Positions 10,793 to 64,000 of a stretch of DNA of 64,000 nucleotides are shown piece by piece. A program made the translations under genes and the position numbers. The DNA is taken from the NCBI GenBank assembly GCA_965655095.1, contig OZ296655.1, positions 27,404,001 to 27,468,000 on the forward strand, given 5' to 3'. The notes beneath the pieces were generated by a model. It did no database searches and was not told the origin of the DNA. It saw only the letters and a program-made list of their open reading frames with translations. Numbering within the stretch: position 1 is the first letter of the stretch; every line of letters begins with the position of its first letter. The DNA is from Haplodiscus bocki. Lineage: Eukaryota.

Positions 10793-10839
10793 AGCACCTT
10801 CATTGATGCTGTACTGATTGACTAAAGAGGTCACATTTG

Positions 10840-24400: not shown

Positions 24401-24464
24401 AACTCTCTAGTTGAGTACTCAGCAACTGCATCGGTGACACATCAATATATCCGTTGTCAAACAA

Positions 24465-33469: not shown

Positions 33470-34705
33470 GCTTTTAACAATTTTTCTGGCGAACTTTTCG
33501 GACTGTATAAAGGCGTTGAATTTTTTCTCCTTTTGTCATTGAGGGAAAAGGAATCAAAGCATCTCCCGTACTGGAAAAAAACTTGAAGAATTTTGGAGGA
33601 AAGAACCGTATCACCCTTCCACACACTACTAAGACGTTACTATTGGGCATTAGTAGTTGAAAGAGAAATTTGACATTGCTCATTTGTATGATTTTTGATG
33701 CAACATTTTATGACAACTAAACTTAGCTTTAGCCGTTTTCAAAGCAATGGGAAAGTCTTTTCAGGACCATTGAAACGGTTAGTCAACCTTTAGGTTGCTT
33801 AAGATCATTGAACACCGTCATTGTAGCCGAGAGCAATCTATCACTGGGGTGTTTTTTGCAGTGCTCTCAACTTTTTAACAGTTTCGATTTCATAGTTTGC
33901 TCTTACCCCCTTGACCCCTCAGAAAAAAAAACAAAATATTGACGATTGATTGAATACACCCATTTCAGGCATACATGTTTGGACCCCCATATTGATTTGG
34001 CCTGCAGTAGGCATCTACATTATCACAGATTGATGGGATATAGCTGGTTTATGCATACAAGTGTGTACTCATAGATTGTTTGTGGCTTCGATTACGCATA
34101 TGCTTGTCAAAAAAATGATGTAATAAACCTGGTACAAGCTCACGTTTTTGGACATTCAGACTGTTTCGGCTTGTAGTGGCCATCGGAAGACTGATGGAAA
34201 ACACCTGAATGCATAAATATTCTGACCTTCAGAAGATTTTGACACACCGTAAGCGTACATAGAGTGAGAAATTGACCGAACATAACTAGTGTATGCATAC
34301 AAATTCCGACTATTACACTCTTTTTGCATTCATTAGGCATCTATATACTGTACGACTGAGTCGATAGTTTTAGCAAAAGGATTCGGACTCCAGCGTGGTT
34401 TTGGTTTGTGGTAAGATTCTATCTTATGAACAATTGATGATATAAACATAACACTGGCAAGCAATATTGGCTTTTGAAGTTTTTTCTGGCAAACTTTTCG
34501 GACTGTATAAAGGCGTTGACTTTTCTCTCGTTTTGTCATCGAGGGAAAAAGAATCGAAGCATCTCCCGTACTGGAAAAAAGTTTGAAGAATAATGGAGGA
34601 ACATCTATATATTGTACGACTGATTCAATAGTTGTAGCATAATTATTTGGACTCCAAGGTTGTTTTTGGTTCCCTGTAGGATTATTTTTTATGATGGATT
34701 GAAAA
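33470..34705 (+). repeat. Interleaved short duplications
   Basis: 33470-33600 is repeated at 34469-34600, and 34339-34440 is repeated at 34603-34705. Confidence 0.85.
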
Positions 34706-35849
34706 AAAAACAACATTGGCATGCAAACTGAGACCTTTAGACCAATTTCGCTTGTTTCACGCTCCTATATAGTGAGTGATTGATGCAAAATGTCAACTAC
34801 AGGCATACGTAAGCCAACTTTTAGATTGTTTTCGCATAATGTAGGCATCCATAAAGTGGAAAATTGATAAAGGGTACCTAGTATAGCCATAAATATTCCA
34901 TTTCGTAGACTATTTCGGCATATTAGAAGCATCTGTATACTCCCAGTTTGAGGATTAAATCTATTAGAGGCTTAAAAACCTGAACTCTTAGATGCGTTCG
35001 GCATGTCGTAGGCACCCCTATTGTGATTGAATCCCAGATTTCGATTTCTGATAGTCATATTGATTTTTTCCATATCCATGTGCTTTTCTCTGTTCTTGTT
35101 CATTAGCTCTTGCTTCGCTCATTCAGATTCCAATTCAAAAGTGTATGCAAAATTTTTCAAAACTCTCCAAACCGCCCTAAACGCTACCAAACATTCTCTA
35201 AAGAATACAACAAGACAAAATTGGAAAAAAGCACGGCAAACTTGATTCAGCAAAAATCATCTGCAAAATCTAAGTACGAAAATATCATGCCAACCTCTTA
35301 GCAAATCATATGTGAGAAAGTTGGAATAGTTTAATATCATTCACTCTCACCCTCCAGTTGAAGACGTCTCTTTTTTCGTTTTGATTTTGTTGACTGATTC
35401 ATCATCAATAATCCAATTGTCCATGTCAAAGAGATGTTCCATGTATTCGATGGTCTTTTTCCTCCTTCTCTGTAAATAATGTAACTACTGGAGAAACATC
35501 AAAAATCTGCACTTGATGAGGTCTAGTTCGGAAGCACTCCGTCTGGTGCTTTCATCGTTTTTGCAACGATGTTAATACAACAAACTTTTCGAGCCCACAG
35601 AATCTTCCTCTAGTTCAGAGTGTGAACCAGTTTTCTGATTCAAACCAAGATCGTTGGTCCAACAGTTTTTGTATCAGAGCACATGGATCGCTGACGCTTA
35701 GTGTCTCCTCACTGCTTTTTGAAGGAATGGGTGCTGGATTTTGTGTTTTTTGGTCGTCCATAATGATTTAATAGACAATAGGGTAGGTTTCGTTTCCAAC
35801 TAGTTAAATCACGCCAGGCTAGCAGGTTTGTCTTCGTTTCCCGATGCTT

Positions 35850-38800
35850 GGTCGTGTAGTATGTCCTGGGTAACTTGATTTTCGCCTATATTGAAGTAAC
35901 TTCAAAGCAAATTTGGGACTCTATCCTCTAGATTTAAAAAAATCAGCTTCCAAACTATTGAGTGATAGTTTTGTAGCGACAATTGTTGAATTTGATGTCG
36001 ATCTGATTCATTTTCCGATATTTATTGCTCTGCAGGGGTAACCATTTTCGAGTGCTTTGCTTTAGAATTTCCGTGTAAAATGTCATTCCGCCTGCTTGCC
36101 AATCCCCTTTATTGATTATTTCTGCTTATAATCGGTCACAGGTGAATACAATTCAAGTTTCGGTCCTATTACTTTTTTAAATGTTACGGCAGCAAGCTCA
36201 ACTTTGACCTTCGAACTTGAGCATTTGCAGTTTAATTTTTTTTGCGATATGTGGTTTATCATCCTCGGGTTTTTTGGGAGAATTGAACCGATAACAAAGC
36301 TCCGGAATATTGGCCAGTCCTCGTAGAAATCAGCTGGTTCGATCTCATAAAACAACCAATCTGTATCAGAATAAAGAATATGACAAAAGAATTGCTTTTC
36401 CACAACTTCGTTGTGGAACTGGAATATATGATAAATTGCAATTTCCAGGAAGCATGCTCCAGCAATTGAGGGTTTATTCCGCACAATGTTTCCTGGCCGA
36501 GATGAAAATGCTGCTAGGTTTTTGTCAAAAATGTTGAGGTTACAAAAACGTTCTATATTGGTCTTCTGAAGCTCCTGCTCTCTGTTGAACGCAAGTGAAC
36601 ATTTTCATGCGTATCTTTCGCTCTCCAGCGTTATACCGATGCTTTAATTTTTCTCAAGCCTAAAACAACTTTCATCATTTTTTTGCGACTCTTTGACTGC
36701 CTGGAGCTTATTACGCGACGAATTCTTTCGATTGGCTTTACAAAAAGGACATAAAGTTCCGACGAAATGCAGTAAACTGTATGTTTTTTGTCAAAAACTT
36801 GAGATATCAGATACCTAACCTCACTCAACTTGCGTTCTCGTCAATTTTTACCAAGACTTTTGAGTGTCGCCCGCGGACATTTTTGGTTTTAATTTTTCTT
36901 GAAACGCTGTCAAAGGGAAGTCTCGAAAACTTCCATATGGAATATCACGATATCGCAAGTTCACTTCTACAACCTATTTGACCTCTGACTCGTTTGATGT
37001 CTGTATTATGGATAAAACCTAAAATTTTCAACTGTCTGAAAGCTTTTCAATGGAAGAGGAAAATTTTCCGAGATCCTTCCGTATAGACTATTTTCGTCCA
37101 ATAAAACCCGCACTGTGTCATCATCGCCACAATCAAAAATGGAAACATATCTGTTGCTCGCCCGCAACATTCTTTTGTCAAAAGCAGATGACAAAACATC
37201 AGGACCAACTTTTTCCAGCCTTTTCAGGGGCAAACTTTCCGTTACCGGGTAAATCAAAGCCTGACAATTTTTGACGAAAGCCTCAACGGATAAATGCGAA
37301 CAAATAAAGTAATGAGCGTTGTGGAGGCCGTAAGTAGTGTGGCCAAACTTCATCAAATCCTCCAAATCTTATGCTAGAAGCAGATTGTCTGCTTTCAGAT
37401 ACAAGCTGTGACGAGGTCCCAAATTTCGACAATTGAATAGCTCAATCATTTACTTATCATGCTCCCATTGTGTTTCCGTCACCGTGCTCTGACCACTGCA
37501 CAAAAAATTTATCCTTTCTCTCGTGTTTGCTGCTCCTATTTCTCATTTCTTTTCCAGAAACATCAAGAAAAAAACATTAATTTTGTATTTGGCGCAATTT
37601 TTCTTTGCTTTTTGTGTTGTAACTGTAAATACGAGACCAAACTGTCGAACTAATTTCTCGGCAAGTTCTGTTCCTGTTGATCATGTAAATAGGCTTCAAA
37701 GCAGTAGGGGTCGATGACGTGCAAGTAATCGGAAACTGCCTTTGTGATACCTTTTTACCGTGTTTTTTCATGGGCGCACCAAAGGATAGACTGATGTATT
37801 TTCCCCATGTTGATGAAATTTTTTCAACTTTGAAGTCTAGTTTAAACTAGTGGAAATAGGGCCTCCCGTGTTGCGTGTCATTGTTGGATATATTGTGGGC
37901 GATGACTGGACTGACAATTGCTGTTTCCTGCTTAAGCCAAACTCAGTAAGTGCACATCCTGGAAAAAAATCCAAGTAATAACAGTTACTAATTACCTCGT
38001 CTTCATTTGAGCCCGGTAGGAATCGCTGCTCACGAATCCTACATTTTTGAGTCGATTCCAGTTTTTCTGACCAGCCATTTCTGCTGTTATAACAACACGA
38101 TAGTTCTCTTTCGTTTCGTCTACTTCAGAAGCAATGGTTGGTTTTGCCTGTACAAATTTTACCCTACAATCTTGCGACCATTCCTCTTGCAGAAAAAACT
38201 AACTGTTCATTACCGTGCACACCTGCCGCGTTGCGAAACCACTAGGGCAGTGTATTTTTTTGAAAGTTAATTGTCCGTGTGCGTTAGCACAACCAGCCAT
38301 TGGCTGAAAGAGAGACTCACAGTCACGGTTATTATTTATGGGACCAATCCAAAGTGTTGCCAGACTTTTGAGTACGAGTTGAATTTTTTGAGGTTTTTAC
38401 CGTTTGAATAGAGCAGTTCTAAGGTCCAAACAAATCTCTCGATGACTATGTTTTGTGTTTTTAAGCAAACCTGAGAACAAATGACACACAACACTCCACT
38501 GGAAAATTTTGCTAAACTTTACTAACGCCCCAAGTCTATGGAGGTCAGTGATTAGAATAAAACAATACTGCTAGTCAAAGTCTACTAGCACTAAATACAC
38601 TCCGAGATCGTAGAATTCTCTACATTTACCAATTCCCCATCCACAAAAAATGCACAACTTTCCATTTCTGTTTCGTGCTTTCCGATTAAGTGCTAAATTA
38701 TCAGTTTCACCTAAAATGTTAATTCGTCGCAAGTTGCGCGTTCCATTAGTATACAGACTGGAGAAACTTTGTGGACATGTAATTGTTTGTTATGCAAAAT

Positions 38801-39100
38801 TAATAATGAGCAATATTCTTTGTCACAAAAATCCCAAGTTGTCTTTTTGATTGACTGTAGATTTAGTTTGGACTGATTGGAATTACAAAATCCGTTTTCC
38901 AAGGGATAGAAAGTCCCTAATGCTCAAAGTATATCAGTTTTGCAGTTTTCTGCATTAAATTTTTTTGACTTGACTGTAGCAGTTCGCCTGAACCTTTTGT
39001 TTGTTGAGCGTAAGTTTTTGAATTTCATGAGAAGTCAGTTAAAACAGGTTGCTGTTTGCACGAATTTTTTCAGCTTTTGGAGACAGCATTAGAGTGAGAC
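35850..39100 (-). pseudogene. polB: Protein-primed family B DNA polymerase (Maverick 1)
   Basis: PVIAHNISNND (exo II), LYLKADNLLLA (exo III), YGLHNAHY...LLDENSLYG...PLP (motif A), DFPLTA, NKPSIAGACFLEIA...FH...LYSDTDWLFYEI (motif C). Confidence 0.92.
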
Positions 39101-39669
39101 AAAAGAAAACCTCTGTTTCACTGAACGCGCAATCTCTCGCCAGATTTGTTCATGTTGTAAAACCTTGAGGTGTTATGTCATTAAACGGTATTACCTGTCT
39201 CAGTCATCCCAAGTATCACTTTCTTTCAATCCTAACTATCAAACGTCTAAAGTCTTCTTACTCGTAAAAGTATTGTCAACTGAAGCCTTCAAAAAAGTCA
39301 AATTGTACCTTCTTGATTTGTTCGCTTGCACTGCACTTCCACTGAAGCCCGCTCTAAGACCATAATTGTTCGTAACACCTTCTGCTTTATCAAAATCAAA
39401 CATCCAAGAACAGTGCTCTGGCCTTAAGAAGCTGCACCAGAAGCATGAAAAGAAATGAAGACGGATCGAAGATTGAACGCTTTTACGTTGACCACAGTCC
39501 AATTTTGTTTGGACTCTGAAAAGACTGTTTTGATTTTCCGTTTTTCCTTTTGTATACTTCATACTACACTCTCGTTTTCTGTTCCTGAAATAAAGTCCAC
39601 AGGCGGCTCTTTGATATTTTTGAAATGTTGATGATCAGATAGAAAAACAGCGAAAACTTTTAGCGATGT

Positions 39670-40100
39670 AAAATGGGACAAAAAGTGGCAATTTTTTTCC
39701 CACTGGTGTATGGTGAAGAAGGATAGTATGCTGTGAATAGAAAAAAAGCAATCAAAATACAATAGAACCCGTTTAAATGCGATGAAGACTTTTGCAAAAT
39801 TCTTTCATCATTTGAGTTATTCTAAAACTAGCAAATGCAAAACGTTCGCAACCGCAGTTGTTTAACTTCACTGGTAACCCAAGTACGCCAACGAACACTT
39901 TTTTTGCTTTGGCTGGACCGAAGTAACCAATGGATTCTTTGTTGGTCTGTTTTGTCTGATATGGTAGTATCAAAAGTGGTAGGACCAAAAGCTAAGTGAA
40001 AATTGCTCGCTGTTTACACTACAAGAAACTTGTACAACAAGAAAAAATACCGTTTGCATTTTTCAGTCCTCTCTATCAAATCCAATACGTCAATCGTTTC
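39670..40100 (-). pseudogene. Adenovirus-type cysteine protease (Maverick 1)
   Basis: LQKSSSHLNGFYCILIA corresponds to the Q...CGxYC motif (~39745-39795); upstream is GYFGP (YFDS-like). Confidence 0.6.
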
Positions 40101-40119
40101 CGCGGAAAAAAAATCTGCT

Positions 40120-41520
40120 TTGGAAAAAAGTTTTTTTGAACCTACTTGAGTGGAAGGATCAAAAACAAATCAGGTGTTTTCCTCGGGAACAACAGTTCTG
40201 TTTTGATGGTCAGAGCGTTCCAGATACAAAAATTGAAAAAAAACTGGAGCAATTGCAACCAAAGGAAGTACGTAATCGTGTGATGTCTGCTGAGTACTGT
40301 TTTTGCTAAATACCCTGAAAAAGTGTTTGGAATTGTCGAGACGAGGAACGCCACGACCACGATGTCCATATGCGAGAGCTTCCAAGAAAATCAATCAGTT
40401 TTGTTTTAATGTATCAGTTGTCAACGTTTTAGCATCAAAATATTTATCCGTTACGGTAGACAGTTGTACTGTTTAAGTCACGCTTTTGGTAATGAAATGG
40501 AGTTGGCTCGATTAACAGAAAAGAATCTAGCGAGAAATGTTAGTCCTTCAGCAAATTTTCTTGTAGGATTTCTACTGAAAACATCTTTTTGATCTCAGCT
40601 CTGTATGTTTGTAGAAACTAGGAATGAAATTGGCATAGTTTCGTCGTAACGGTGCAAAGATGGCATCTTGGTTAGTGTAATTTGAAAAGCAGGATAAATT
40701 TTGTGTAGAACAGTCACTTGACAAACCCTACCTTTTTCTTTAGGTATATCTTAGTCAATTTCCTTTTGTTGCACCGTCATGAACAAAGGAAAACGATCCG
40801 CAAAGTAAGTCAGCTCAATTATGTTTTTTTGCAACAGAAAAAAACTGCTGTAACATTTCCAATGAAAGAAAGCACCGATGANNNNNNNNNNNNNNNNNNN
40901 NNNNNNNNNNNNNNNNNNNNNNNNNNNNNNNNNNNNNNNNNNNNNNNNNNNNNNNNNNNNNNNNNNNNNNNNNNNNNNNNNNNNNNNNNNNNNNNNNNNN
41001 NNNNNNNNNNNNNNNNNNNNNNNNNNNNNNNNNNNNNNNNNNTTTCGGTTCAGTTTGTAGCTGTTTTTCTAATCAAATGTCCTTTGTCTCCAATTTGTGG
41101 GAAACATTTGTTCCAAAAAAAGCGTTTTGTGCTCAGATTTTGTTAACAGCTGAAACTTTTATCACATTTGCTGCATTGCTGAATTTACAAAAACCAAAGA
41201 ATGGGCAGTGTTCTTCAGAAATTGTTGCAAAGCGCTAATTGCAACAATTGTAGAGTGGTAAACCAAATATGTTGCATCTGGTTTGTTAAAATCACAATTG
41301 ATTTCCAGATGATTATTTTGTTGATTGATAAAGTTGTACGATCACCTGGAGCTTTAAAATTCACCGATGATCCATTTGGAGCCCAAACTGGGCCATGTTG
41401 TTGTTCAAATGATGTATCAATTGTGATGGGTTTATGTAGCTGTTCGAAGTTGTTGAGTGAACTGCGAGATGTTTCAACATGTAAAACGTTAAGCAACAGT
41501 TTCAGCTCTTGAAACAAAAT
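40120..41520 (-). pseudogene. Major capsid protein (double jelly-roll), spans the assembly gap
   Basis: N-terminal DTSFEQQHGPVWAPNGSSVNFKAPGDR; DAIFAP; C-terminal LEALAYGHRGRGVP...KHFFRVFSKNSTQQTSHDYVLP (decayed VFDLT-type motif). The ~1.4-kb span fits an MCP. Confidence 0.7.
40882..41042. other. Assembly gap (161 N)
   Basis: Run of N bases. Confidence 1.
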
Positions 41521-41559
41521 CTGAACGACCTCTAATCAACAAGTTTTTGCGTTTTAAGA

Positions 41560-41850
41560 CTTTGCATTTCCCTTCTCCTGATCCAACCAGCGGTTCCTTC
41601 ACTGTTTTTATTTTGATGATTTAGCAGTGTCTTTGGTGGACGTTTTTTGGAACGATTTCAATTAAACCTGGTACTCTCTTGGCAAACAAATCTCTCACAA
41701 TGTTTTGACTGCGCGTAGATGTTTTTCAAGCTAATGTTATAGCTAGCGCACCAACACTTGCTGCTTGTGATCCCAGGACCTTTACCTCTTTGTGTCCAGT
41801 GACCTATGAATTGATGCATATTGGCTTGTTTTGGACAGTACTGCTCCAAC
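41560..41850 (-). pseudogene. Small basic Gly-motif (QRGxG) core-like Polinton protein
   Basis: QANMHQFIGHWTQRGKGPG; homologous in position and sequence to 58380-58715. Confidence 0.55.
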
Positions 41851-41864
41851 TTTTGATTTCTTGG

Positions 41865-42680
41865 AAAATCATTGTCACTGCGACTCTTTCGGTACCAACA
41901 AAAGGTACTTCGCGACTAATAAAAATAAAAATTCCGTTTCGAGTGTCTTTATTGGAGTTACTGTTGAGTTTTTAAAATGATTTTTGGAAACATTTTGATG
42001 ACTTTTAATGGAGTATTTTTTGAGCTGCCATTCGACAGTCTACTTTGACTATCAATGATTGCCATCAGCTGTGATTGGACATCTACGACATATTGTTGCT
42101 GAATGACATTTGTGGTTGCAAAGAAAAAGTTTGTCACAGGAGAAAAATTTGGAGGAGAATCTTTAAAGTTCAGTTGTTTCTCCTTGCCATATTTTCTGAG
42201 CTCACCTAAAAAGACCTCTTTTTGTCTTTGTCTGGCTCACGCTCAACAATCATGACATTTAGAAAACAGCGGTTATAATTTATAACATCAGAAATTTTTT
42301 TGATTACAAGAGATACTTGACATTTGTAACTGATTTGACACAAATCGAAGGGCTTGTTGAAACACTTCACCTCCCTAATCCTTTCAAGATAATTTTTTTC
42401 AATTGTTTGTGGTCAGCAGATGGGAGTTCCCAGTTTCCGCACGGGACTTGAATTCCACCGGTTTTTGGTTACGAAAACGCGTTCATTGGTACATTTTGAA
42501 TGTAGATGAAAATGCCGTTTGTTGTGAAGTTTTTGAAGGCTGATAGGAAACACAATTTCAACCAAAGCTACACGCCTTTCACTTTTTAGTTGAACTAAAA
42601 AAGCAAACAGACTGAGATAGACACGCATTGCGTTTTCGGGTTCACACTTTTGAACTCGTATGCTCGAGGTAAATGACGAA
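41865..42680 (-). pseudogene. Minor capsid (penton) protein (Maverick 1)
   Basis: N-terminal PENAM...RVALVEIVFP (WxVALxEI motif), QQYVVDVQSQL (QxVGD motif), and C-terminal VPFVGTERVAVTMIF. Confidence 0.8.
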
Positions 42681-42684
42681 TTAG

Positions 42685-43585
42685 TTCTTTTACTCTGGTT
42701 AAATCCCGCCGCAAAAAATTTTCAATGTTTCTCGCTGCTTTTTCGTCTTTCGAAAGTGACCTTGGTTGACTGATTGTGGCAACTTTGGTTACCGCAAATA
42801 AATAGTCTTTGAAACTTTGTCTCTAGCCTTTTTTGAATTTCAAATATTCTTTGGCTGATTGATATCTCTTACCAATTGGGGATCTTGGTTTGCAAAGAAA
42901 CATAGTAGACAGTTCTGCGGCTAAAGAAACAATTTGTTGCACTTCTCAGTTTGTATTTTTTTCCAACCATATATGAATAATACGGTTAGCTCAAGAATTG
43001 ACTGTTCTGACACTTTATTGCAGTTTGTTAATGAAATGGTAGGTCTTTTTGTTTTGCCATTGTTTTTGTTTAGTGGTTTTCGGTGAGTAGATCGATCATT
43101 CGACAACTGCAGAGGTTGTTGCACTTGCAGTCGCGTAAGTGTTTTTTGTTTTCGTGTCACACATAGTTTTGAAAGCTCCTTTGAAATATGTTACCTTTTT
43201 GGGATCAAAACTTTCGCACCTGAAATTGTTCAGTTTTCCCTTCAAATGCACTTGCTGGGCCATGGCCACGTTTTGTTCCCATTGGTACTAATTGCAGACA
43301 AACCGACAGCACGGCGGCTGCATCAAGTGATTTTTTTGTCCCCGTAAAAAGACTTCGCGAATTTGTCAGTTTAGGCCATGTCTTTTGAGCAAGTCTTGTT
43401 TTTGTCGTAGGCAATAACATTTAATAGCTGAAACTTTGGTATAAACTGTCTGTAGTCTGGGTGTTCAATTGTTGCGAGGGGAAAGGTATCAACGTTTCAA
43501 CTTGAAGCTTTGCTAGCGGTTTGCAGTTTCCGCAAACTGCCATATGTCCTGGGACCGCGTAAGTAAATGTTTTCATTCCTTCAGG
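42685..43585 (-). pseudogene. Retroviral-type (c-integrase) DDE integrase (Maverick 1)
   Basis: YLRGPRTYGS, FQLLNVIAYDKNKTCSKDMA, FKGAFKTMC...SAVVE, KPRSPIG...FKKG*RQSF. Confidence 0.85.
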
Positions 43586-44730
43586 TTTCGAGGGCCTCCC
43601 ACATATCCGAAGCTCCTTCTTTGTTTCAAGAAGTCAGGCGAAGCTGCTGCTCATCATCTGTACAATTCATGGGTACAGGTTTCACTGTTTGTGTTTTGGT
43701 AGAAACAAAACTAATAACTGGGCACATTTTCTTTGCACAATCTGCTTGGCCTACCTAATTGGACTAGTTATCTTAGAAACATCGAGTTTCTCCAAAAGTT
43801 GATTTTGGTTGCGTTCGTTCAACTGTTTCCTGTTTTCGTTCCAGTTGGAAAAAAGTGTTGCTATTTCATTTGACGTGGCACAGTCACCAATTGTCAGTAC
43901 ATTTTCTTTCTGACTTCAACTTCTTGCCTTTTGCTGATGCTTTTTCAGTATCGGTTTCACTTCTCGAGTTGATGTGGTTGAAGCCATGACAGTTGACGCA
44001 AAGCCCTTGACTGCACTCTTCTTGGAACCGTTGCTGTTTTATTTTTGCCTGTTTCTGTTTTCGCATTTTTTTTCACAATGTTCTTCATATGCAAGTTGTC
44101 ATCGTTCGAAAAGGGTTAGATAAAGCGATTTTTGCGTTAACATGCGATTGACTACCAATTCTGATGTTTTTGGTTGTTCTTCAGCAAAACTGTATTGGGT
44201 ACCGAATCAAAGTCTTTTGCACTCACTGTGATAAAAAGCAAATTCAGAGACGACTGAAACCCTGGAGTAATTTAATGCCTTTACTGACAAAAAACAAGCT
44301 TTCTTTGCTTAACTGATGTCGTAGTTGACCCTGAGATGCCGAATTTCTACTCGCAAGGTGTCAATGCGTCTGTTCTGAATAGCATAAAACCACTGTTTGT
44401 TTCGAGTGTACATCCATATTGGAAGCTAATGTCATTGTTGCTACAATTCTTTACACTCCGTTGATACTTGTTTCTTTTCTCGTGGTCTTGCCATCACTTG
44501 AGTATATGCCGTTCCCTTCTGATCCTTCTCATAAAAGTTTTTTTTTGCTAGCAAAGATGGAAATTGAACAAGACGTCCGACTAGCACTAATATTATTTTG
44601 CCCAACTACAAAAACTTGGATCAGTTCTTGCAACTTGTTAGAAACGAGACTTCTGTTTTTAATCTAGTTGCCAAAGGTTTTATAGAAACCTCTTTTCCAA
44701 CACTGATCCCTTTTTTCAAATCCAAATTTA

Positions 44731-46562: not shown

Positions 46563-46640
46563 CTATAGCTTGAACAACGTCTATAACTTGAATAACGTCT
46601 ATAGCTTGAACAACATCTACAACTTGATCGAGGTCTACAA
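46563..46640 (+). repeat. 18-bp minisatellite x4.3 (CTATAGCTTGAACAACGT)
   Basis: Units at 46563, 46581, 46599 and 46617. Confidence 0.9.
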
Positions 46641-53059: not shown

Positions 53060-53700
53060 ATCGGGTTGTTTTAAATTGTTTTGAGTCACCACATATCTGT
53101 ATTAAAAGAAGGTTAGGTGAAATATACCAACACAGATGGAATATACCTAGCATAAGCTCACATATTATAACTGTCAGGTTGTATTGACAACCCATAGCTA
53201 GGTATAAATTGAAGATGGGAATTATCTAAAGTGAACTCATGGACTATGCATCTGGGTTGTTTCGACCGAACATATGTATGTATGAGTCGCAAAATAGATG
53301 CAAAAATTTTAATGAACGCTTATGTGATAAAACATTTAGGTTGATTCGACCGACTGACCAACTCCATGTAGTTGTGTGCAAATAGATTGCACAAACCTAG
53401 AATAGGCTCAAATATCAGGAATTTTTGGTTGTTTTGACCGACTTTAGTCAACTATACCTTGAACGATCAGTGGAATATACCTAAAATAAGCTCACGTATT
53501 ATGAATTATATTTGGTCGTTCTGATCGACCATACACAACCATATTGTGGAAGATTGATGGAAAATGCTTAGCAGAGGCTAAAGTCTATCTAGTTTTGGGT
53601 TGCTTTGGTTATCCATAAGCCTTCATATAGTAAAAGGTTGATTCTAATTAGTTCGTAAAAACTCAAATTTGTTGATTCTTAGGACGTTTTGTTTCAGTTT
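53060..53700 (+). repeat. Degenerate ~80-bp tandem array
   Basis: Recurring gatggaatatacctarnataagctca...ggttgtttygaccga near 53135, 53214, 53297, 53384, 53470 and 53556. Confidence 0.65.
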
Positions 53701-54479
53701 AGGCGTTCCTATCCCATAAGACTGACAGAAATTGTTTCGGATGTGTTCGTGCTTATACGATTTTACGTTGCTTGAACGTCATAGGTAGTCTTCTAGCCAA
53801 GGGCTAAGATCGATTCTTACACAAAACTGTTTTGAGCACGCACAGCAAATCAATACAAATTACAACATGCACTTGAGAACTTTTGAATTCCAGAAGCAAA
53901 TAGAGACTTGGCTGGAAAAAGAAAGATTTTTTCGCTGTCAGAGCTGATCAATCTCTCTCCTTTCTTTGATCTTTTTGTTTTGTTGTCACTGTTCAACGCA
54001 TCGATTCCGATGTAATTTCCATGTCGGGTGAAAGGTTTCGCTCATCTTCTGTATACACGGCAAACAATGGGATGCTTTTGACGCTTTGCTTTCTCAATCC
54101 GATCTTCAGCATGACTTCCATTGACTTCATTTGCAAGAACAGGATCTCCGACTGTTGTTTTGAAAGCAAAATTTTCTGTCAAGGTTCAGGATCATTCGAT
54201 GAGTTTCGCTTTTGAGTCCTTCGTTTTAGACTATGAAGGACACCGGAGAGGTTCCTTTCCGTCACTGATTCCACTGACTTATCAGTCTTATCCACTGTCA
54301 AGGGTGTCCTTGTTGGCGACGTTGGATCATCCTTGCCATCAAAATTCAGAAAATCTTCCATCAGTCCATCTTCAGAAATCTTAGTGCATACCAGAACCAG
54401 GCGGAGAACAAATCAAAGGTGCATCGAGTGTTGAATGTAGCTCTGGTGGCAGAAACTTTCTCCCGAGAGAATTAGATGG

Positions 54480-57400
54480 GGAGCGGGGGCGAAATCGGGT
54501 AATCAGTTTTGATTCATATACTCAGAAAATGTAGGACTAGGTTTCTGCAAATCTCCATCCTTTCCCCAATACTCGTTTTCCAAAATCTTTCAACAAACGC
54601 AAAGGTTCCTGATGGAATACGGCCCAAATGGATGGGTTTTAGTTCATCATCTTCCTTGTACCTCTTGTCATTGAAACAACTCAATGATCCATTGCTTGTT
54701 GTGATTGTCTGCAGATGGTGAGAGTTCGAGCCAATGCTAGTTTTAAAAGTTTTGAATTACTCACGCGTGCGCGGGACATCCCTGTACAACTCACGCTTTA
54801 ACTGTTATTATGCGATCTGTGTGACGCCTTTTGCCGATAGTTTTTGTTTGCAACCGCATTAAATTGAATGTTTTCTTAGCATCAGACCATTGAACTTCTC
54901 TCTTGGAAGCCCTGCAAATTCGTTTTCGCACTTTAATGTGACAAACTTTTGTTCGTTTTTGAGAAATTGATGACTTCGTGGATCGTTTCACAAATTAAAA
55001 TTTTGTCTCAGCTCAACATTTCTTTTAATTTAGCGTAGAAAGTCTCTTTGAACCCATACAAGAAAAAATGAGTGTCTGAGTAAAACGTTGCGCAGTCCGC
55101 TATTGATGTGTATTTTTATCACGTTGTAATGCAAGTCATGCATGTAAAGGTCGGCCAAAACAGGTATCGTAGCACCCACTATTGTAGGTTTGTTCCACAA
55201 AAGTTTCCTTTCTTTGTTGTTAAAGCCGCCAAGTGCTCGCTGGAAACTTTGAAACCGGTTAACTGCCTCGATTGTATCAATCGTTCACCTTGGTCTTCCT
55301 GTTTGACCAGACGCACTTTTTGCGGCTAATTTTGTGCTCCAACGTCTTTCCATAACAGCTAATTTTCTTGAGTGGTTCCTGGTAGGCATTTGAGTCATGG
55401 CGCGTTCGTTCTTAGAGTAAGTTAGCCTTTCCCGGTACAAAATTTGTTGAGATGAACCAATGCAAAGAGTAATGCGGCAAAAGACATCTCTGCGTCTGTA
55501 ATATCCGCCGGCAACTTCGTTGATCACTACTGTTAATTTGGTTTCGAGAACATAATGATAATTTGAATGTTCCTCCAAAAAAGACAAATCTATTTACAAA
55601 TCGCTTTCTCGGTTCTTAAAATTTCGAATTGGGACAAATGTCTTGTCGCCAAATTTGGAAACAAAATCTCATTAGCACTTGAATTTCAAATAACTGAAAC
55701 GTTAGAAGATTTCAGTTGTCCTGTTGTCTTTTCATAAACAACATAAGGTTAAAGGTATAACTTGTTGGAAGACGTTAATTTTGCAGTTGTTCAGATATTT
55801 AAAATTGGACTTTTGTCCAACACCCTTTGGCATTTCAACTTTTCCAAATATCTGATGTACCTGGAGATTAGAGGTGGAGTAGGTGGATGGATATTTTTTT
55901 CGCCAACATGGACCTCCCCTATGTCTGAACAGCCAGCGGGTGCCAATGCTTTATGTGCTATGCCGCGATGTAGCAATACAGGAAATAGTTGAAATCCTTC
56001 TGATTCCGGATGTTTAGTGGCGACGGAGAGCTCGACTTTAGCTCCAATGGAAGAGCAAATCAAGGAGAACGTCGAAAACTGTTAAACGTTTGATGTCAAG
56101 CTGAGATATCTGATTTAGCAACCAGCCAGTCCTCGAAGCTATGGATGTGTGAAAAGTTTCGTCTGCCTTGTGTCAATGTTGAGATACTGTTCACAAGACA
56201 AACCGGTTTTGAAGACTGATTGCATTGGTGACCCAACGAATAGCATCATCCTGTCGTTGGTTTGAACCGGCGGCTCATCCAACTTCATGGCAGTGCCAAA
56301 TCAAAACTTTCGTGTTTTTTGCTGACAATGTCTTTTTTAGATGGTTTATGCCTCGTTCCTTTTCCAGCACATAATCGAGTAGATTAACCTCAACAAACCG
56401 CTGGATTGAATAAAAAAACATTCAGTGGTTTGCTGGATGCTGACGCCATTGGTGACTTTTTATGCTTCTTAATGCTTGAAGGAGCTGAAAGTTCATGAAG
56501 TTGTTATAGATGTTCTTGAAAACGCGCTGTATCATTGCACACGGTTCTACAGTGAGGACAAAATTTGCGAACAAAGTTGTCATGGGCAATATGGAAATGA
56601 ATTGCCAATGCGGCCTTGAAATTTGATTTGAAAGGGCATAAACTGTTTTTCTTGTCTATCTTAATTTGGTAATTTTCGCCAATGAATGGTATGGACGGAC
56701 AGTAGGAATTCTTCTTGTATTCAGCAGAACAATAACAATGGGGTCCACAGTGCTACGAGGAGAGTGCCTCCGGCGGGTTCTCAGCCATTTGTTTGACATT
56801 AAAATCGGGAACAAAAAGTCGCTTTTAAAGGTGATTATTTTGATGGACTGGGAGTCCTGAAGGGTTTGCGAAAAGACATTCTCCACGTTTGTGGCAAAAC
56901 AGAAACTATAGGGTTCCCACGTGACTTGTGTTGCCGGAAGCCGCAATGAGAAATGTGTTCTCATCCAAGATGAGGGGAAAGTTGCCAGCAACATAAAAAA
57001 CGACAAAAACTTGAGTTGAGTTGTTTACATTTGAGAACTAGGTGTGACAACGTACGCTCAGTCAATTCACAGCATTAGTTTTTGTTTTCAGGAAAGTAAT
57101 TATTGATACTGGTCAATCAGAGTCAATCTTAAATGTTGACGACTTTTTACACGGAAAAGTGTGGGCCGTCAACTCTTTTGGGAAACCTAGTTCTACCAAA
57201 CTTCATGGCTGATTCAGCTCTGGGTACAAATCATGTGGTGTGTGCTGTGTGCTGGCTGGTCAAAAACCATAAAGTATTGAATACTTAAATCTCAGAACAA
57301 TTTAACATGATCAAGATGACTGAATGCTAACGCTTCTAAACTTTCATATTCGATTTTCAATCGTTATCAGTTACCAGAGAGGTTACTGCAATCTGGTAGC

Positions 57401-58370
57401 CCCTGAAATTAACTGTGATGGAGCCCAACTTGAACTTGTCAAAATGGAGGGGTTTCATTGTTGGCTTCCCAAAAAGCCTGATTGGTTTTCACTGCAATGA
57501 CAAATGGGTCACGAATAAAAAAATCCTCATGACTCCAGCTGCAAGTTGTTACGAGAAAAAATTTAGTTGATTCTAGTGTAGCGGTAGATGGCAAGCATCT
57601 TTCTCCAGGTTGTTTCAACGGCCATGTATACAAATTGGTTCACTGTCGCTTTACGAACTTGCGGTTTTTTTTACTTATCTTCACTTTTTAGTCCTTTGTG
57701 TCAGCATCATAACTCAAACAGAACTTTGATTTTGTTGTCAAGAATGAAAAATTGAGGGCTAACCGGCTGACAGGATGTTTGTCGTAAGTAAATGTAGCCA
57801 CTGCATTTTTACCAATCAGCGACAAATTGTTTGATTATCTACTTTTTATTCATCTGTCTGTGAAATCTTGGGTTATGAAATCATCAAGACTTACCTCATG
57901 TTTCTATCCCTGGCATTTCAACCACGTGTCCTTGGCTTCTGTGTTCGTTGATAACTCCGTCTCCAGAAGTGCTTTTAGAAATTAGTTCCCATTGGCAGGA
58001 GAATTTGTGATACCATTTAGAGTGACAGTACAGTGCGAAAACTAGCAGTGCAATGCATTGTTTTTAAAACCTTTTCAAGTCTCTCTGTGTGGGATCTGTT
58101 GCATGACAGCCCAAATTTGTTCCAATTGATTTGATTTTTGGCCAATATGCCTCTAACTAAACGTGTGATACGTCTACAAAAATGATTTGGTCCCCCGTTC
58201 TTTCAACTTTCAGCAGAAGACAATTGGGAGCAGAAAAAAATGCCAATCGTTTCTCTAAAGTTTTAACGAAAGCAATCAAAAGAGGCTGTCTAACTAAAAT
58301 TTGTACAGAGTCATGTGATGCCCCAATTATCTACTGGTATTATATTAAATAACAAAGTTCATTTCTGAAA
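54480..58370 (-). pseudogene. polB: Protein-primed family B DNA polymerase (Maverick 2)
   Basis: SCYGKTLE (motif B, ~55345), WNKPTIVGATI...MHDLHYNV, YSDTHFFLY (motif C, ~55075), and SLSCFNDKRY (~54665, conserved C-terminal motif). Confidence 0.88.
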
Positions 58371-58379
58371 AAAAATGGA

Positions 58380-58715
58380 CGGAGTTTTTACTGGCTTCAT
58401 TTTGCGTCTTTTGGTACTTTTTCTCAACCACCCTCCAACTTTCTTCTCGGCTGTTTTTTGGATTATTGATTGTGCCGTTTGTTTTGGTGTTTTACGTTTA
58501 GCTGCAGCTTGCACAGACTCTGGTGAGCTTTGGTTGAACATATCTCACCCAATTGATTTGCACGCAGTGAGCAGAAAGTTTTTGGCTAAAAGGAGTGCAA
58601 CTCTACCAACACCAGTTTCCTTTTATTGAAGTACGCTCAAAAGTTGATGTGTGTGGCCAGAAAAACGAAGTGGAATGGCTTGCCGTGACTAATACGATTC
58701 CTTTAGCAAAACGTT
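58380..58715 (-). pseudogene. Small basic core-like Polinton protein (Maverick 2)
   Basis: RQAIPLRFSGHTHQ...GVGRVALLLAK...KTAEKKVGG...KRRK. Confidence 0.55.
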
Positions 58716-59553
58716 ATGAGTTTCAATGCCAGTGCGTTTGATTCCGTCCCACAAATTGTACGTTCTGTCCGGTTCCGGATAACAATTCAAGTTAATTCCA
58801 CTAACAAGCTTGTAATCAACTTTTTCAATTGGGGCTTCTTAAAACTTTTTGAGCTCTAGTTGAGACAATTTGAAGTTTGCTTGCCGATGATTGTTTCTCA
58901 TTGTCAATGTTGGGTAAAAAGGCCGACTTTACTCCAGCAATGTGTTGTTGTTCAGTGATGTTCGTTTCTCCAAAAAACATGTTTGTTCCTCCATTAGTTT
59001 TTGGTGGACTACCCACTGTGATTGATTGTACTGTTTTCGCCACTTTTTTTATGATTGTTGACCAAGTAAGCAGCAGATGTGTTCTTGTCCAAAAATTTTT
59101 GAAATCTGAAACCTAGTTTATCTACCGTGGAAACTTACCGTGTCAATTTTTCTGCAATTAGGTTCCACAACTTTTTGCTCTCTTTAAAAGCAAGAGTCCA
59201 ATGGCTCAAGAAACCTGGTACTTAATTCTTGTTTTTCCAAAGAGGGCTCTGTCGTTGTGTGTTCAATCTGTGGAAAACTTGAATTTCTTAACCAATCCTC
59301 TCGAGATAGTTGATCTCCACCGTGACTTCCTTTGAAATGTTTACTAATTGTGAGTGAGTGTAGATGAAGTAATCTTTTGTGATATTTTTTGGCTGGTGGG
59401 AAAAAATGTTTCAGGTGAAGCAACTTGCTCGTCACCTTTCAGTTGAATGCAGTGAGCTAAAAACATACTGAAAACCGTCACTGGTTTGTGTGGATGAATA
59501 TCCATCGAATTTGCGGATTCAAGGAGGATATCAATTTGGTCCTTCTGCTTCAA
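58716..59553 (-). pseudogene. Minor capsid (penton) protein (Maverick 2)
   Basis: ILLESANSMDIHP...LKGDEQVASPETFFPTS; GTNMFFGETNITEQQHIAGVKSAFL. Confidence 0.8.
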
Positions 59554-59554
59554 C

Positions 59555-60440
59555 CAATTCGCGTTCGTAAGGCTTTCGTTTTATGATTTCTACGGTATTG
59601 GGTGTCATATTGTATTTAACGGTTGAGAGTTGAAACCATCTTGAATGTGAAAATTTCGTTTGTCTAGTTTTGCTTGCAACCTTTGTTGAGCAGTGAGTCC
59701 TCTCTTGAAGTTCGCACTTTGTTTGTGACTGGATAACCATGTTTTCTGAAATCACTTTTTTTCCAGTCTGCAAGTACCGCAATTGAGGCATATTTTTGTT
59801 CTTCATCTTATTGGGAGCTAGTTTAGTTATTCTATTGACAATTGAACTGGTTATGTTGACAGCTGATTGCGGCTTGTTTACAAAAGATTTAGTCGACTTG
59901 TGTTCGGAATAGATTTACGGATGTTTTCGACGGAACGAATAACTCCTTCTGCAAAAACTAATTCGATTTCACTTTCTGATTTGTTCTCAGCTGTTCCTTC
60001 TTCTTCGCAGGAATTTTGAAACGAACATTTAAACTGCAATCCTTTGTCGGACCAATTTTATTCAGTGTTTTCATTTCCAATCCTTTGCAGCATTGTTTTG
60101 GCTTTTCGAGAAAACATTTCATTCGCAATAGTGGAAATGTTAGGTATAGTGAGAAAACGTCTTTTGCAACGAGTAAAAAGCTGATGACCTTGTTGTATCT
60201 TGCAAGTTTGTCATCATAGATCATATCGATTGACCAGTTTTTTTTGACATTATTAGCAAGATTTTTAAAAGAAGAAACGTTTCGTCTGCCCTCTTGGCGT
60301 TTGCTTTCAGTTTTTCCGATCAAAAGAAAGTCCCCGTTTTCTTGCGTCATATTTTTGATGCTTTTTTCAAGTTCGAAACACAAGCAGAGGCTGCTGCTCC
60401 AACACTGTAAAGATGGTCCAGTTTTTTGGTTCACCTGTTG
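59555..60440 (-). pseudogene. Retroviral-type integrase (Maverick 2)
   Basis: ORF 59958-60434 contains NWSIDMIYDDKLARYNKVISFLLVAKDVFSLYL (WxxD...LxxxDVFS). Confidence 0.88.
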
Positions 60441-61349
60441 AGTAAATCACAACTTAACTGACCTTCCTATCCTGCATCAGAATCTTCGCCAGGTTGCTAG
60501 TTGATTTTTTTTGTCTTTCTTAGCCAACTCTTTTCGGAGTTTTCGGTTAACTTGATACTACTCTTCCTTCTTTTGTCGGATTCATAATCCCTTTCAGTGA
60601 ACATTTTGCTTCCAACTGCGGCGTGAGATTTAATTTCTTCAAAATTTACTTATAGTTTGGAGCTGGTGTCTGTTTCTTGCTTTGTTGCTTGTTGTAAAGG
60701 AAAAATGTTGCATCGATTGAAGTACTATCATCCCCAACTCTAATCATACCATCTTCAAAGATGCAAACGTCTTCAGCTTCTTCATTTTTGCGGAAACATG
60801 GTTTCATTTTTTGGGCTGGATTGAGCATGAACAGTGATTTTAGAAACCGCTTTTGCGCCTCCCACGTGATTTCTGTTCTCCCAGTTGCTGTTCCTTGGTT
60901 TCTTTCGATGAATCATTTTTCAGTGTTTGACGTCGCAAAATTGTTAAAGAAACAACTTTCTCAGGCGCAGTTGAATCATCCCGTCATCTTAAAGCCCTTT
61001 GTCACTTCTTCACATCTTTTTCTGTTGAAATAGGCTCAAAAATTTGCGTTCTCACTCAGTCCAATGACATGAACACCTGCAACTGATTAGTTTCATCTTT
61101 TTTGTTTTTTTGACCAATGATAGACTTTATTCTATTTTTTTTTTAATTTCAAGGGTTACACAGCTTTCTCAGTTCGTCTGCGAAAGGCAGTAAAGTACTT
61201 ACAGCAAAACGATAGCTTCCATCTAATATTTTCCATGCGGTCTTTTATAAAAACTTCAGTTTTTCGTTGTCGTAACGGTCCAGCAAAAAATGTTGATATG
61301 TTGCTGCTTCTTGCTTTTTTGCCAGCGTTTGTGAAAGTGCAACTTTTTC

Positions 61350-61990
61350 GCTTTTATTTGTCAAAAAATTCGTTTCGATTAATGATGGGGGTTTTTGAAA
61401 TGTTGTAAGCGGAGGAACAAAGTTGATTGATCAAAATCGCATGAATCAATTGTTCTTGGATCAAAATCATGTGAAAAGTGGCCGATTGGTTCAGATGTTG
61501 CCTTATTGTAACAATGTGTGAGGAATTCGTTCCGTTCAAGTGCCTCCCAAACATACCAACTTGTTGAAAGCCTCTAAGTGATCTGAATAAAACAACGTCG
61601 AGTTTGTGCGACCACTTACTGTGGTCGAAAAAATTTTATTTGACTCAGATGCTATGAATTCTTATATGTCCCCCTGTTGTTGCAATTCTCAGAAAGAAAA
61701 AATTCCTGATAAAGTTCTTGTCACGACTCATCAAATATGAGTGCACAGTTTTGTATTTTCTTAATCACTTTGAAGACTAGATGGAGTACGAATTCAATAT
61801 CGACTTTTCCGGACAGTTGCTTAAAAACAGGTTGTTAATCCTTCTAAAAGTTGGACAATTTTTCAACGGGATAGTGAACAGTTGGTGAACAAACAATAGA
61901 GAAAAATAATTGAGTTTTCCAGACCTGATCGGTCTAACCATGAACATGAAAAGACGATAATATGAAAGGACGATCCTTTGTGAAACTTAT
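61350..61990 (-). pseudogene. A32-like packaging ATPase (Maverick 2)
   Basis: Decayed Walker A LFMFMVRPIRSGKL (~61910-61955), Walker B LIFDES, IATTGGH (GRH motif), and VLFRSLRGFQQVGMFGRH (LFKxPRDxxQ motif). Confidence 0.8.
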
Positions 61991-62350
61991 TTTGTTAAAA
62001 AGGTCCAGATTTGTACAACATAAGCAACTGCTCCTAGCGAAAGGGCCAATCAAACTCTTTGTTCTTCGCTTATAAGTAGGTCAAACGCCACTTTGTTGAA
62101 AGTTGTAGTATTTATATTGAAATAAATATTGGTTCAGCGAAAAAAAAGATCAGACTGTTTTAATGTGATGGAGTAGCACTATTTCCTTTGAGATCCTTCG
62201 CTTTTGCTATTGTCAAACACAATGTCGTCAACCTGTATGCCGTCCGTTGATTCAACTGTATGTTCTTCCGTCTCAAATATTTGATTTCCTCAGATGAATT
62301 TTTAATGCAAAAAGTGTCATACAAAAGGTACAAACAATTCGTATCAGTGA
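61991..62350 (-). pseudogene. Possible cysteine protease relic (Maverick 2)
   Basis: Weak: G*RHCV (GxHW-like), FFAEP (FADP-like), suitable size. Confidence 0.3.
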
Positions 62351-62949
62351 TAAGGAGTTTTTCCCAGAAATTTCAAAGTTAGCTTAACTTATAAAATTTC
62401 TAAGAGGCAGAGTCATTACTAAGTTTGGGTTTTATCCGATTTCCTTAGTTTTTCCTCCTGGAGAATGAGGCTGGGAAAAATGTATATTCCTAAACATCTT
62501 TTACACCAGCTGTTTCTCCCACTAACTATTTCGGTGGCCTTGGACCATTTTTCCATCAATTTCTATGTGATTGCCGTTTTGTGTTGGTAGCCTAGGGGAT
62601 AGATTGTTGAGCTTCTTGATCAATTCCTAGTGTTATCTGTTGGACATTGTTTCTGATTTAAGGAGAAATGTAGTCTACTAAAACGGTGATTGAGTTGATA
62701 CCTTTTTTGACACAAGTGATTTCTTCAGGGGCTAACTGGATGATGGTTTTCTTAAGAAAGTTATGACTTGCAAAACGACTTCCTCCTTCTTGACTAGGTA
62801 TATACTTGTCTCCGTATCAATTGTTAGTCCCACTGCAATTAGTTGAACTGCTGTTGATAGATGCCGAAGCAGACTGAAGGACATTGGTAGCTTAAGAGTT
62901 TGCAGCTTTGGTTTGCTTGTATACAATTACTGTATTTATTTGATGAACC

Positions 62950-63380
62950 GATTAAAGTAAAACGAAATTTTATTTCTCGAACAATGGTCAAAGTAGCGCT
63001 CAGAATGATTTAGGTTGAAGCAACAACTGTTCATAGAACAAATTAATTCTGTTACTATAGGACGCCCGACACTCAATAAGTCGACTACATGGAACAAAAA
63101 ATAAATTTAAGCCTTTAATCAGAAATTTACCCCTATCACGTAGAAATTTGCGTTTGGAAACTGTTCTTTTGAACCTGTAAAAAACGTAAACGAAACTGAG
63201 CATTCATGATTTCAAGCATTCCAGTCAAGCCACGAATACGTTTTAAACTACAGGGAGAAGCTTTCTCTGCGTCTTGAAGGCTAAAGTGCCTATCAAAACG
63301 GAGACGAAATAGAAAAAATTTTTCAAAACTTTGAACCCTATACAGATAATTTTTTTTGTATAGAAGAGATGGATTCTATG
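62950..63380 (-). pseudogene. Possible DEDD-type exonuclease-like accessory ORF
   Basis: Weak: RGLDWNA* (HGLxWxxG-like, reconstructed across a frameshift) and FYVIG (VKG-like). Confidence 0.3.
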
Positions 63381-64000
63381 TCTGACCTCCTCAAAATAAA
63401 GAATGACATTCTCTGGACTCAGCATTTTTTAAAAAAATGGGTTTTTTGCGGTTTGGAAATCTCAAAAAAACATGTTCTGTAGTTTGTCCGACTTACAGTT
63501 GAGGGATTGCGCGCCTTTTTTGTGGATATTTCCAGACATTCTTCAAGCAGTGAACTGCGCCGCTCTTGAACAAGCAAGCGTTTAACAAAACAAACTCGGG
63601 GCTTGTTTTGGCGGAGCAACTTCCCCGAAAAATTGGTGATTTTCTTGACGTGGACCAGTCATAGCGCGGAAGTATTATAAAAACTCGTTCGTATTTTTTC
63701 TGCAGCCAAATGATTAAGAATATATATGCAATATATGTAAGTTGCGAATCAGGTCCAAAAAATCGTCGCGAAGGAAAACGATACCTTCGTTGAAAAACAT
63801 GGCTTTTACGAGGTGGATCATGATTTCTTGTAAAGATCTTTTGTTAGAAGTGAAGGGGACTGATTAAAGCTTTCGTTCAAGTTGCGAGAGTCTGTTCAAC
63901 GGTAGAGTTGTTTTTTTTTGAGTTGCATAGACCCTCGACAAGGAGTGGGGGTCTCATTTTCAGTTGCTATCAGAGAAAGGTTTTGTCAGCATTGCAGCAA

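What the first reader, a model, noticed from the sequence alone, without database searches (positions are those of the whole stretch)
33930..64000. Two co-oriented fossil Polinton/Maverick viruses within 30 kb
Seen: two separate minus-strand gene arrays, each with pPolB, integrase, minor capsid and a basic core-like ORF. Element 1 adds a major capsid and protease; element 2 adds a packaging ATPase. They are not alignable by eye at DNA level. Known: this gene set defines Polintons/polintoviruses. Inference: independent insertions of two lineages that together cover the full virion module; the all-one-strand organisation may mark a little-described clade.
Basis: partly seen in the sequence, partly recalled or inferred. 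Interest (0 to 1): 0.7.

Follow-up and report, generated by a model that had tools for sequence, protein, structure and literature searches.

The report
Two decayed, colinear Maverick insertions
These are two long-dead copies of Maverick (Polinton) virus-like transposons, each with the whole core gene set in the same order and likely inserted separately by two sister lineages common in this animal's genome; they are ordinary fossils, apart from a tRNA-like motif set in one terminal repeat that could be an RNA polymerase III gene.

Summary
Both relics are real, and their breaks are genomic. They are not complementary. Each carries ATPase, PM-, PZ-, integrase, minor capsid, PW-, major capsid, protease and pPolB relics in the same order on the minus strand. 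Element 2 has the major capsid and protease; element 1 has the ATPase. E1 spans 33,934-49,077; E2 runs from 53,120 past the window end. They belong to two old subfamilies: disjoint sibling sets, tree support 100/100, 24% amino-acid identity, third-codon excess. These are sister branches of one abundant family whose younger copies have AGTAGT termini and 6-bp target duplications. Same-strand layout holds across this family but is already published for Xenopus tropicalis Mavericks, so it marks no new clade by itself. The capsid clade's only named members are from Convolutriloba macropyga. The scan noted other Polintons in this genome before. Verdict: new members of a known kind, low interest.

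The parts
33934..49077 (-). Element 1 (E1): decayed Maverick of subfamily S1; left terminus kept, right terminal repeat not found
   Evidence: 61-64% nt to S1 siblings over kb-long blocks; left terminus GGTAGT at 49,077 matches sibling termini; homology stops at about 33,934
48860..49077 (-). E1 left terminal-repeat remnant
   Evidence: 70-76% to right and left ends of sibling copies
48918..49008 (+). tRNA-like unit in the terminal repeat, facing outward: A-box 48,927, inverted B-box copy 48,956, B-box 48,980, T-run; possible Pol III gene (inferred)
   Evidence: not called by ARAGORN at default or by Rfam
47238..47435 (-). E1 left accessory ORF relic (homologue of the 236-aa ORF)
   Evidence: HMM E 2e-4
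45830..46323 (-).
   Evidence: HMM E 8e-22; reference ORF hits Pox_A32 at E 2.6e-4, below the curated cut-off
44570..45730 (.). Secondary insertion of a dispersed repeat between ATPase and the next gene
   Evidence: siblings skip it; it matches flanking DNA of unrelated loci L032, L057, L065
43715..44517 (-). E1 two small conserved genes (PM- and PZ-like by position)
   Evidence: HMM E 2e-10 and 1e-13; names by synteny with PMC8097293
42691..43580 (-). E1 integrase relic
   Evidence: HMM E 1.5e-34; reference ORF hits rve above cut-off
41861..42640 (-). E1 minor capsid relic
   Evidence: HMM E 4e-8; reference ORF's ESM Atlas neighbours are mostly viral clusters, one named Sputnik minor capsid (lead only)
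41495..41849 (-). E1 small basic ORF relic (PW position)
   Evidence: HMM E 1e-7
40233..41493 (-). E1 major capsid relic (contains the N stretch 40,882-41,042)
   Evidence: HMM E 2e-13; reference folds as a double jelly roll
39681..40100 (-). E1 protease relic
   Evidence: HMM E 3.5e-14
35948..38603 (-). E1 pPolB relic (N-terminal part too decayed to place)
   Evidence: HMM E 4e-40; 103 own-genome matches to one open frame
33934..35060 (.). E1 subterminal array of about 84-bp repeats
   Evidence: period 84 also in siblings L058 and L064
53120..64000 (-). Element 2 (E2): decayed Maverick of subfamily S2; continues about 740 bp past the window; no terminus found at either end
   Evidence: 61-65% nt to S2 siblings; homology ends at L025:2736 and at about 53,120
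62598..63367 (-). E2 two left accessory ORF relics
   Evidence: HMM E 3e-12 and 5.5e-4
61290..61999 (-). E2 packaging ATPase relic
   Evidence: HMM E 1e-26
60499..61319 (-). E2 PM- and PZ-like relics
   Evidence: HMM E 1e-7 and 4e-28
59555..60448 (-). E2 integrase relic
   Evidence: HMM E 2e-17
58741..59547 (-). E2 minor capsid relic
   Evidence: HMM E 2e-14
58362..58715 (-). E2 small basic ORF relic (PW position); 23 K+R against 5 D+E in 118 codons
57089..58324 (-).
   Evidence: HMM E 5e-48; 39% to the reference over 289 aa
56657..57010 (-).
   Evidence: HMM E 3e-20
54512..56650 (-). E2 pPolB relic, with the protease-pPolB spacer and start lost and about 530 profile positions deleted near 55,350
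   Evidence: profile positions 97-481 then 1014-1279; siblings keep a 0.5-1.2 kb spacer
53120..53815 (.). E2 subterminal array of about 84-bp repeats

Best explanation
Two dead Maverick/Polinton elements, each with the full core gene set in one order on one strand, likely inserted separately about 4 kb apart by two sister subfamilies and then left to decay neutrally. Shown: the gene relics and their order, the subfamily membership, dense stops and frameshifts, a secondary insertion in E1 and deletions in E2, and AGTAGT termini with 6-bp target duplications in younger relatives. Inferred from family knowledge: the ancestors replicated with a protein-primed polymerase, integrated with the rve integrase, and could build double-jelly-roll capsids filled by the ATPase and matured by the protease. 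Each subfamily appears to have spread in a burst (star-like clades with long tips). The adjacency is likely chance in a genome holding many such copies.
For: All 9 core genes in both, colinear; reversed control empty. Own-genome DNA searches give non-overlapping sibling lists, 32 and 20 non-self matches at 63-77%. A 7-gene tree of 22 elements puts E1 with 8 S1 copies and E2 with 6 S2 copies, support 1.000 (FastTree) and 100 (SH-aLRT); the MCP tree agrees, 0.995 and 0.987. E1 against E2 is 24% aa over 1,216 columns. Codon-position mismatch is 0.50/0.48/0.62 for E1-E2, against 0.40/0.37/0.41 for E1-S1 and 0.37/0.35/0.45 for E2-S2: selection acted on the path between them, near-neutral change within S1. 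Stops: 27 in 1,323 codons (E1) and 35 in 1,492 (E2). TIRs and 6-bp TSDs in 3 of 3 younger copies examined. MCP model pLDDT 85; best fold match Sputnik capsid, E 2e-17.
Against: Neither relic keeps both termini, so no TSD could be read. E1 and E2 have the longest tips in their clades (1.06 and 0.76 substitutions per site), so their exact places inside S1 and S2 are unstable. At protein level E1 is about as close to the younger families (33-36%) as to its siblings (33-38%); the assignment rests on the tree and on DNA identity. Siblings were chosen by DNA similarity to each element, which favours two groups. S2 shows some third-position excess of its own (ratio 1.85), so it is not one instantaneous burst. 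PM, PZ and PW names rest on position only. The protease reference had no Pfam or PDB hit.
Confidence: 0.92

Rival explanations
1. One insertion was duplicated locally and the two copies decayed apart.
For: Same strand, same gene order, 4 kb apart, and homology of both stops just after the 84-bp array.
Against: Each is closer in DNA to distant siblings (61-65%) than to the other's subfamily (55-58%); only 3 short HSPs join them; they fall in separate clades with third-position excess between them.
Confidence: 0.02
2. Two complementary defective elements that together supplied a full virion module.
For: The major capsid and protease of E2 and the ATPase of E1 are hard to see by eye.
Against: Both elements hold all the core genes, and every gene is broken.
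Confidence: 0.01
3. The one-strand layout marks a formally distinct, undescribed clade of animal polintoviruses, possibly specific to acoels.
For: Order and strand are kept in 14 of 14 old siblings for the genes each still has and in 9 of 9 metagenome contigs over 2-5 genes. The MCP profile separates a top set from a large pool near 200 bits; MCP stem 0.57, support 0.90; the only named members are Convolutriloba macropyga. Another family in the same genome has capsid and pPolB convergent.
Against: The two gene blocks are the canonical vertebrate ones, and the same-strand form exists in X. tropicalis (PMC8097293). Accessory ORFs lie on the other strand in the younger subfamilies. 3 of 14 siblings have stray opposite-strand hits. 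No named reference Mavericks were in the tree.
Confidence: 0.3

Closest known systems
Vertebrate Mavericks (Barreat and Katzourakis 2021, PMC8097293; section 7 and passages read)
   Same: Blocks atp-pm-pz and int-mcp-pw-MCP-pro; (AGT)2 termini; 6-bp TSDs; 16.5-19.4 kb in younger relatives (published range 12.7-24.6 kb); most copies are degraded fossils (96% in that paper).
   Different: Both blocks and pPolB run one way, with pPolB last (vertebrate norm convergent; X. tropicalis same strand). TIRs of younger relatives are short, 72-93 bp. There is a subterminal tandem array and, in S1, a tRNA-like unit in the TIR.
Adintoviruses, Alpha/Beta (Starrett et al. 2021, PMC8502044; passages read)
   Same: pPolB, rve integrase, packaging ATPase, hexon- and penton-like capsids, protease.
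   Different: Alpha or Beta not established here. The reference pPolB hits PF03175 at 57.9 bits with weak Endonuclease VII and C2H2 hits; no OTU domain was reported by Pfam.
Convolutriloba macropyga 'F54H12.2-like' proteins
   Same: Nearest named major-capsid relatives, 57-58% to the reference, in the same MCP clade.
   Different: Annotated as uncharacterized host proteins; their gene order could not be checked.
Helenus/TRIMp3 (Kojima 2024, PMC10886601; passages read) and adenovirus VA RNA genes (recalled)
   Same: A tRNA-type A/B-box unit carried inside a mobile element or its terminal repeat.
   Different: Helenus is an LTR retroelement; here the unit is in a DNA element's TIR and faces outward. 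VA RNA resemblance is recalled and untested; Rfam gave no match.

Membership tests
Maverick/Polinton | Protein-primed family B polymerase | tested here: met
   Relics in both; reference hits PF03175, E 1e-15, above cut-off
Maverick/Polinton | rve integrase | tested here: met
   Relics in both; reference rve E 3e-9, above cut-off
Maverick/Polinton | Double jelly-roll major capsid | tested here: met
   Relics in both; reference model matches Sputnik, iridovirus and PBCV-1 capsids
Maverick/Polinton | A32-like packaging ATPase | tested here: met
   Relics in both; reference Pox_A32 E 2.6e-4, 21 bits against cut-off 22.8, with a Walker A motif
Maverick/Polinton | Minor capsid between integrase and PW | tested here: inconclusive
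   Position fits; ESM Atlas neighbours mostly viral, one named Sputnik minor capsid (PF21507 on 26% of members; recognition 2202, under the 2300 mark); not folded
Maverick/Polinton | Adenain-like cysteine protease after the major capsid | tested here: inconclusive
   Position fits and the reference shows His-Trp, Gln and Cys motifs (motif knowledge recalled); no Pfam or PDB hit
Maverick/Polinton | TIRs ending in (AGT)2 or (AG)3 and a 6-bp TSD | tested here: inconclusive
   Met in 3 of 3 younger relatives. E1 keeps only its left end, with 1 mismatch; E2 keeps neither
Beta adintovirus / Polinton group 1 | pPolB falls in the Beta (group 1) clade | not tested
   No named reference pPolB was available; the gene blocks resemble vertebrate Mavericks
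   0 of 33 ORFs from 3 younger copies have it at the first or second ATG
tRNA gene | Cloverleaf recognised by ARAGORN or Rfam | tested here: not met
   0 calls at default; at relaxed score 1 of the TIR-unit loci (L078) was called; no Rfam tRNA match
Type-2 Pol III transcription unit | A box, B box and T-run terminator | tested here: met
   Both boxes within 2 mismatches in 13 of 13 aligned ends, spacing 53 nt in 7 of 13, T4 in 11 of 13; box consensus recalled
Type-2 Pol III transcription unit | Transcription or TFIIIC binding | not testable with these tools
   Needs small-RNA or binding data

The most novel reading that the evidence does not exclude
This Maverick lineage carries its own RNA polymerase III small-RNA gene at its termini, a polinton counterpart of adenovirus VA RNA or a TFIIIC boundary element. 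In S1 it is an outward-facing unit of about 90 nt, found at left and right ends, with a B-box paired to an inverted B-box copy. Different A/B-box-like units lie near the ends of two S2 copies and inside the right end of the younger B subfamily, which would mean the feature was kept across lineages.
Probability: 0.2. Interest if true: 0.65.

Novelty: new member of a known kind. Interest (0 to 1): 0.3.

Why it matters
As fossils they matter little: degraded Mavericks are the rule in animal genomes, and this genome holds at least 98 pPolB matches (a lower bound). They do record successive waves of one polintovirus-like lineage, with two extinct subfamilies beside two recent ones. If the terminal unit is a real Pol III gene, it would be a trait shared with adenoviruses or an insulator carried by the element. 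Three full-text searches on it listed no paper on this.

Tried and rejected
Pfam on X-read-through frames of E1: 0 families. ARAGORN at -ps75: noise, 104 calls in the window. Rfam over 47,500-54,500 and over 11 terminal loci: nothing at gathering score. IMG/VR scan with the MCP alignment: 0 of 30 candidates confirmed. Right terminus of E1 and both termini of E2: not found. Poxvirus-type promoters: not found. A first IQ-TREE run timed out and was replaced by FastTree and a fast IQ-TREE run. One search used a misregistered structure string and is discarded; the corrected count gives 88.6% paired but no covariation beyond shuffles (123 of 500 reach it). Folding z-scores of six units run from -2.2 to +0.2, so no structure is established. 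Free-SINE reading of the unit: not supported, since 9 of 10 loci continue into Maverick subterminal DNA and 5 of 5 further hits match Maverick ends; the search skips very common words, so it is not excluded. No young S1 copy was seen in this genome (best 68-69% to P0019). No RNA holder listed. Paper searches with 0 hits. No supplements were read; genome maps in the supplements of PMC8502044 and PMC8097293 may show more one-strand elements.

Full report
Setting. The window is G000:C8:27,404,001-27,468,000 of a 1.5-Gb genome. No open frame over 162 aa lies in 30,000-64,000, and Pfam sees nothing in E1's three minus frames. The relics were therefore read through relatives. Searching the genome with one pPolB frame of each element gave overlapping top hits. 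Stretches around seven of these loci supplied reference ORFs.

The references are Mavericks. Three younger copies examined for ends all have AGTAGT...ACTACT termini, short TIRs and exact 6-bp target duplications, at 16.5, 18.5 and 19.4 kb. Their ORFs hit rve (E 3e-9), Pox_A32 (E 2.6e-4, just under cut-off) and PF03175 (E 1e-15). The 439-aa ORF folds as a double jelly roll: pLDDT 85, best match Sputnik capsid at E 2e-17. The minor capsid and protease rest on position, a language-model lead and recalled motifs. PM, PZ and PW are named by position after PMC8097293 (section 7 read).

Map of the window. Profiles of these ORFs place the same series on the minus strand twice: left accessory ORF(s), ATPase, PM, PZ, integrase, minor capsid, PW, major capsid, protease, pPolB, then an array of about 84-bp repeats. 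The reversed window gives no hit at E<0.05. So E2 has the major capsid (57,089-58,324) and protease (56,657-57,010), and E1 has the ATPase (45,830-46,323); the complementarity is an artefact of reading by eye. E1 runs from a recognisable left terminus at 49,077 to about 33,934 and carries a 1.2-kb secondary insertion. E2 runs from about 740 bp beyond the window to about 53,120, with deletions at the start and in the middle of pPolB. They are adjacent, not nested. Over seven genes E1 has 27 in-frame stops in 1,323 aligned codons and E2 35 in 1,492, with roughly 25 and 27 frame switches. Short-read contigs of two samples from one study reproduce E2 almost letter for letter; one may be the assembly's own source.

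Independent insertions. DNA searches with each element returned non-overlapping lists (32 and 20 non-self matches). I fetched 6 loci for E2 and 8 for E1, mostly the longest matches. In a seven-gene tree of these, the two window elements and 6 younger copies, E1 groups with its 8 and E2 with its 6 at full support; both clades are star-like with long tips. The capsid tree with public proteins agrees. Third codon positions are in excess between E1 and E2 (0.62 against 0.48 at second positions) but hardly between E1 and its siblings (0.41 against 0.37). This fits descent through functional lineages, then neutral decay. Caveats: siblings were picked by similarity, E1's protein identity alone does not separate its siblings from younger families, and no rate is available for dating.

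One strand. All 14 old siblings keep the order and strand of the genes they still have; 11 show pPolB on the same strand, and 3 have stray opposite-strand hits. Nine metagenome contigs keep parts of the order. Younger subfamilies have opposite-strand accessory ORFs between protease and pPolB. Another family in this genome has capsid and pPolB convergent, for example on C11 near 24.69 Mb. In vertebrates the same two blocks are usually convergent but share one strand in X. tropicalis (PMC8097293). The layout is a family trait, not a new design. The capsid does form a separate clade whose only named members are from Convolutriloba macropyga, which I recall as an acoel; the host's identity was not determined, and no named Maverick references were in the tree.

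An extra feature. E1's terminal repeat holds an A box (48,927), a B box 53 nt on (48,980) and a T-run, facing the terminus, with an inverted B-box copy between them. It is the only such unit in the window; 30 shuffled windows gave 1 in all. Among 13 aligned S1 ends, left and right, both boxes lie within 2 mismatches in 13, the spacing is 53 nt in 7 and a T4 follows in 11. These ends were chosen by likeness to E1, so they share the motifs by descent. Hits elsewhere in the genome lie at Maverick ends. Different A/B-like units lie near the ends of two S2 copies and inside the right end of subfamily B; none was found at the ends of subfamily A. ARAGORN at default and Rfam do not call it, and covariation is not above shuffles. 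The plainest reading is a captured tRNA or SINE head copied to both ends with the TIR, as proposed for Helenus LTRs (PMC10886601, passages read). A second is a terminal binding motif that merely resembles a B box. The boldest is a functional Pol III gene. Searches listed no paper on it; one search returned 8 general TE papers, seen as listings only.

Earlier notes. The scan has two notes on other Polintons in this genome. The poxvirus-promoter claim does not extend to this family: 0 of 33 ORFs have TAAATG at the start. The HUH-like claim was not tested.

Verdict. Real, independent, ordinary fossil Mavericks of a known kind; interest 0.3, with the terminal unit as the one lead worth following.

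Noticed in passing
window 48,918-49,008 (+); L064:9200-9297, L068:9686-9781, L074:1511-1602: Outward-facing tRNA-like A-box/B-box/T-run unit in the terminal repeats of the S1 subfamily, with an inverted B-box copy that could pair with the B box.
   Followed up: partly
L027:3936-4132 and L032:6116-6312: The left end of the younger subfamily A carries a near-perfect 197-bp hairpin (96-nt arms) starting 10 bp inside the terminus; the right end lacks it.
   Followed up: no
L028:4068-4739 (-): Opposite-strand accessory ORF of subfamily A with an H-Y-H stretch, perhaps HUH-like (by eye; no Pfam hit); a weak homologue sits after the protease in metagenome contig L121.
   Followed up: no
L028:4848-5246 (-), L027:5717-6079 (+): Two small accessory ORFs that look PC4-like by eye (recalled resemblance; Pfam gave no PC4 hit).
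   Followed up: partly
G000:C2:101,098,700-101,110,900 (L074-L079): Six near-identical tandem copies, about 2.4 kb apart, of an S1 left end: a recent tandem amplification of fossil DNA.
   Followed up: no
window 33,934-35,060 and 53,120-53,815; L029:3600-4750; L038:570-1160: All four subfamilies have a tandem array after pPolB, with period 84 bp in S1 and S2, 175 bp in B, and a short-unit array in A.
   Followed up: partly
window 1,045-1,233 (+) and 1,268-1,642 (-): Weak ATPase-like and pPolB-like matches (E 1e-3 and 3e-4), possibly a scrap of a third Maverick.
   Followed up: no
window 20,518-22,467 and 24,459-26,415: A 1.96-kb direct duplication at 96% identity; also 10,262-10,793 and 13,877-14,416 at 75%.
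   Followed up: no
window 31,864-31,927 / 32,020-32,083 and 33,469-33,601 / 34,469-34,601: A 64-nt inverted repeat (91%) and a 133-nt direct repeat (89%) near E1's right edge; origin unexplained.
   Followed up: no
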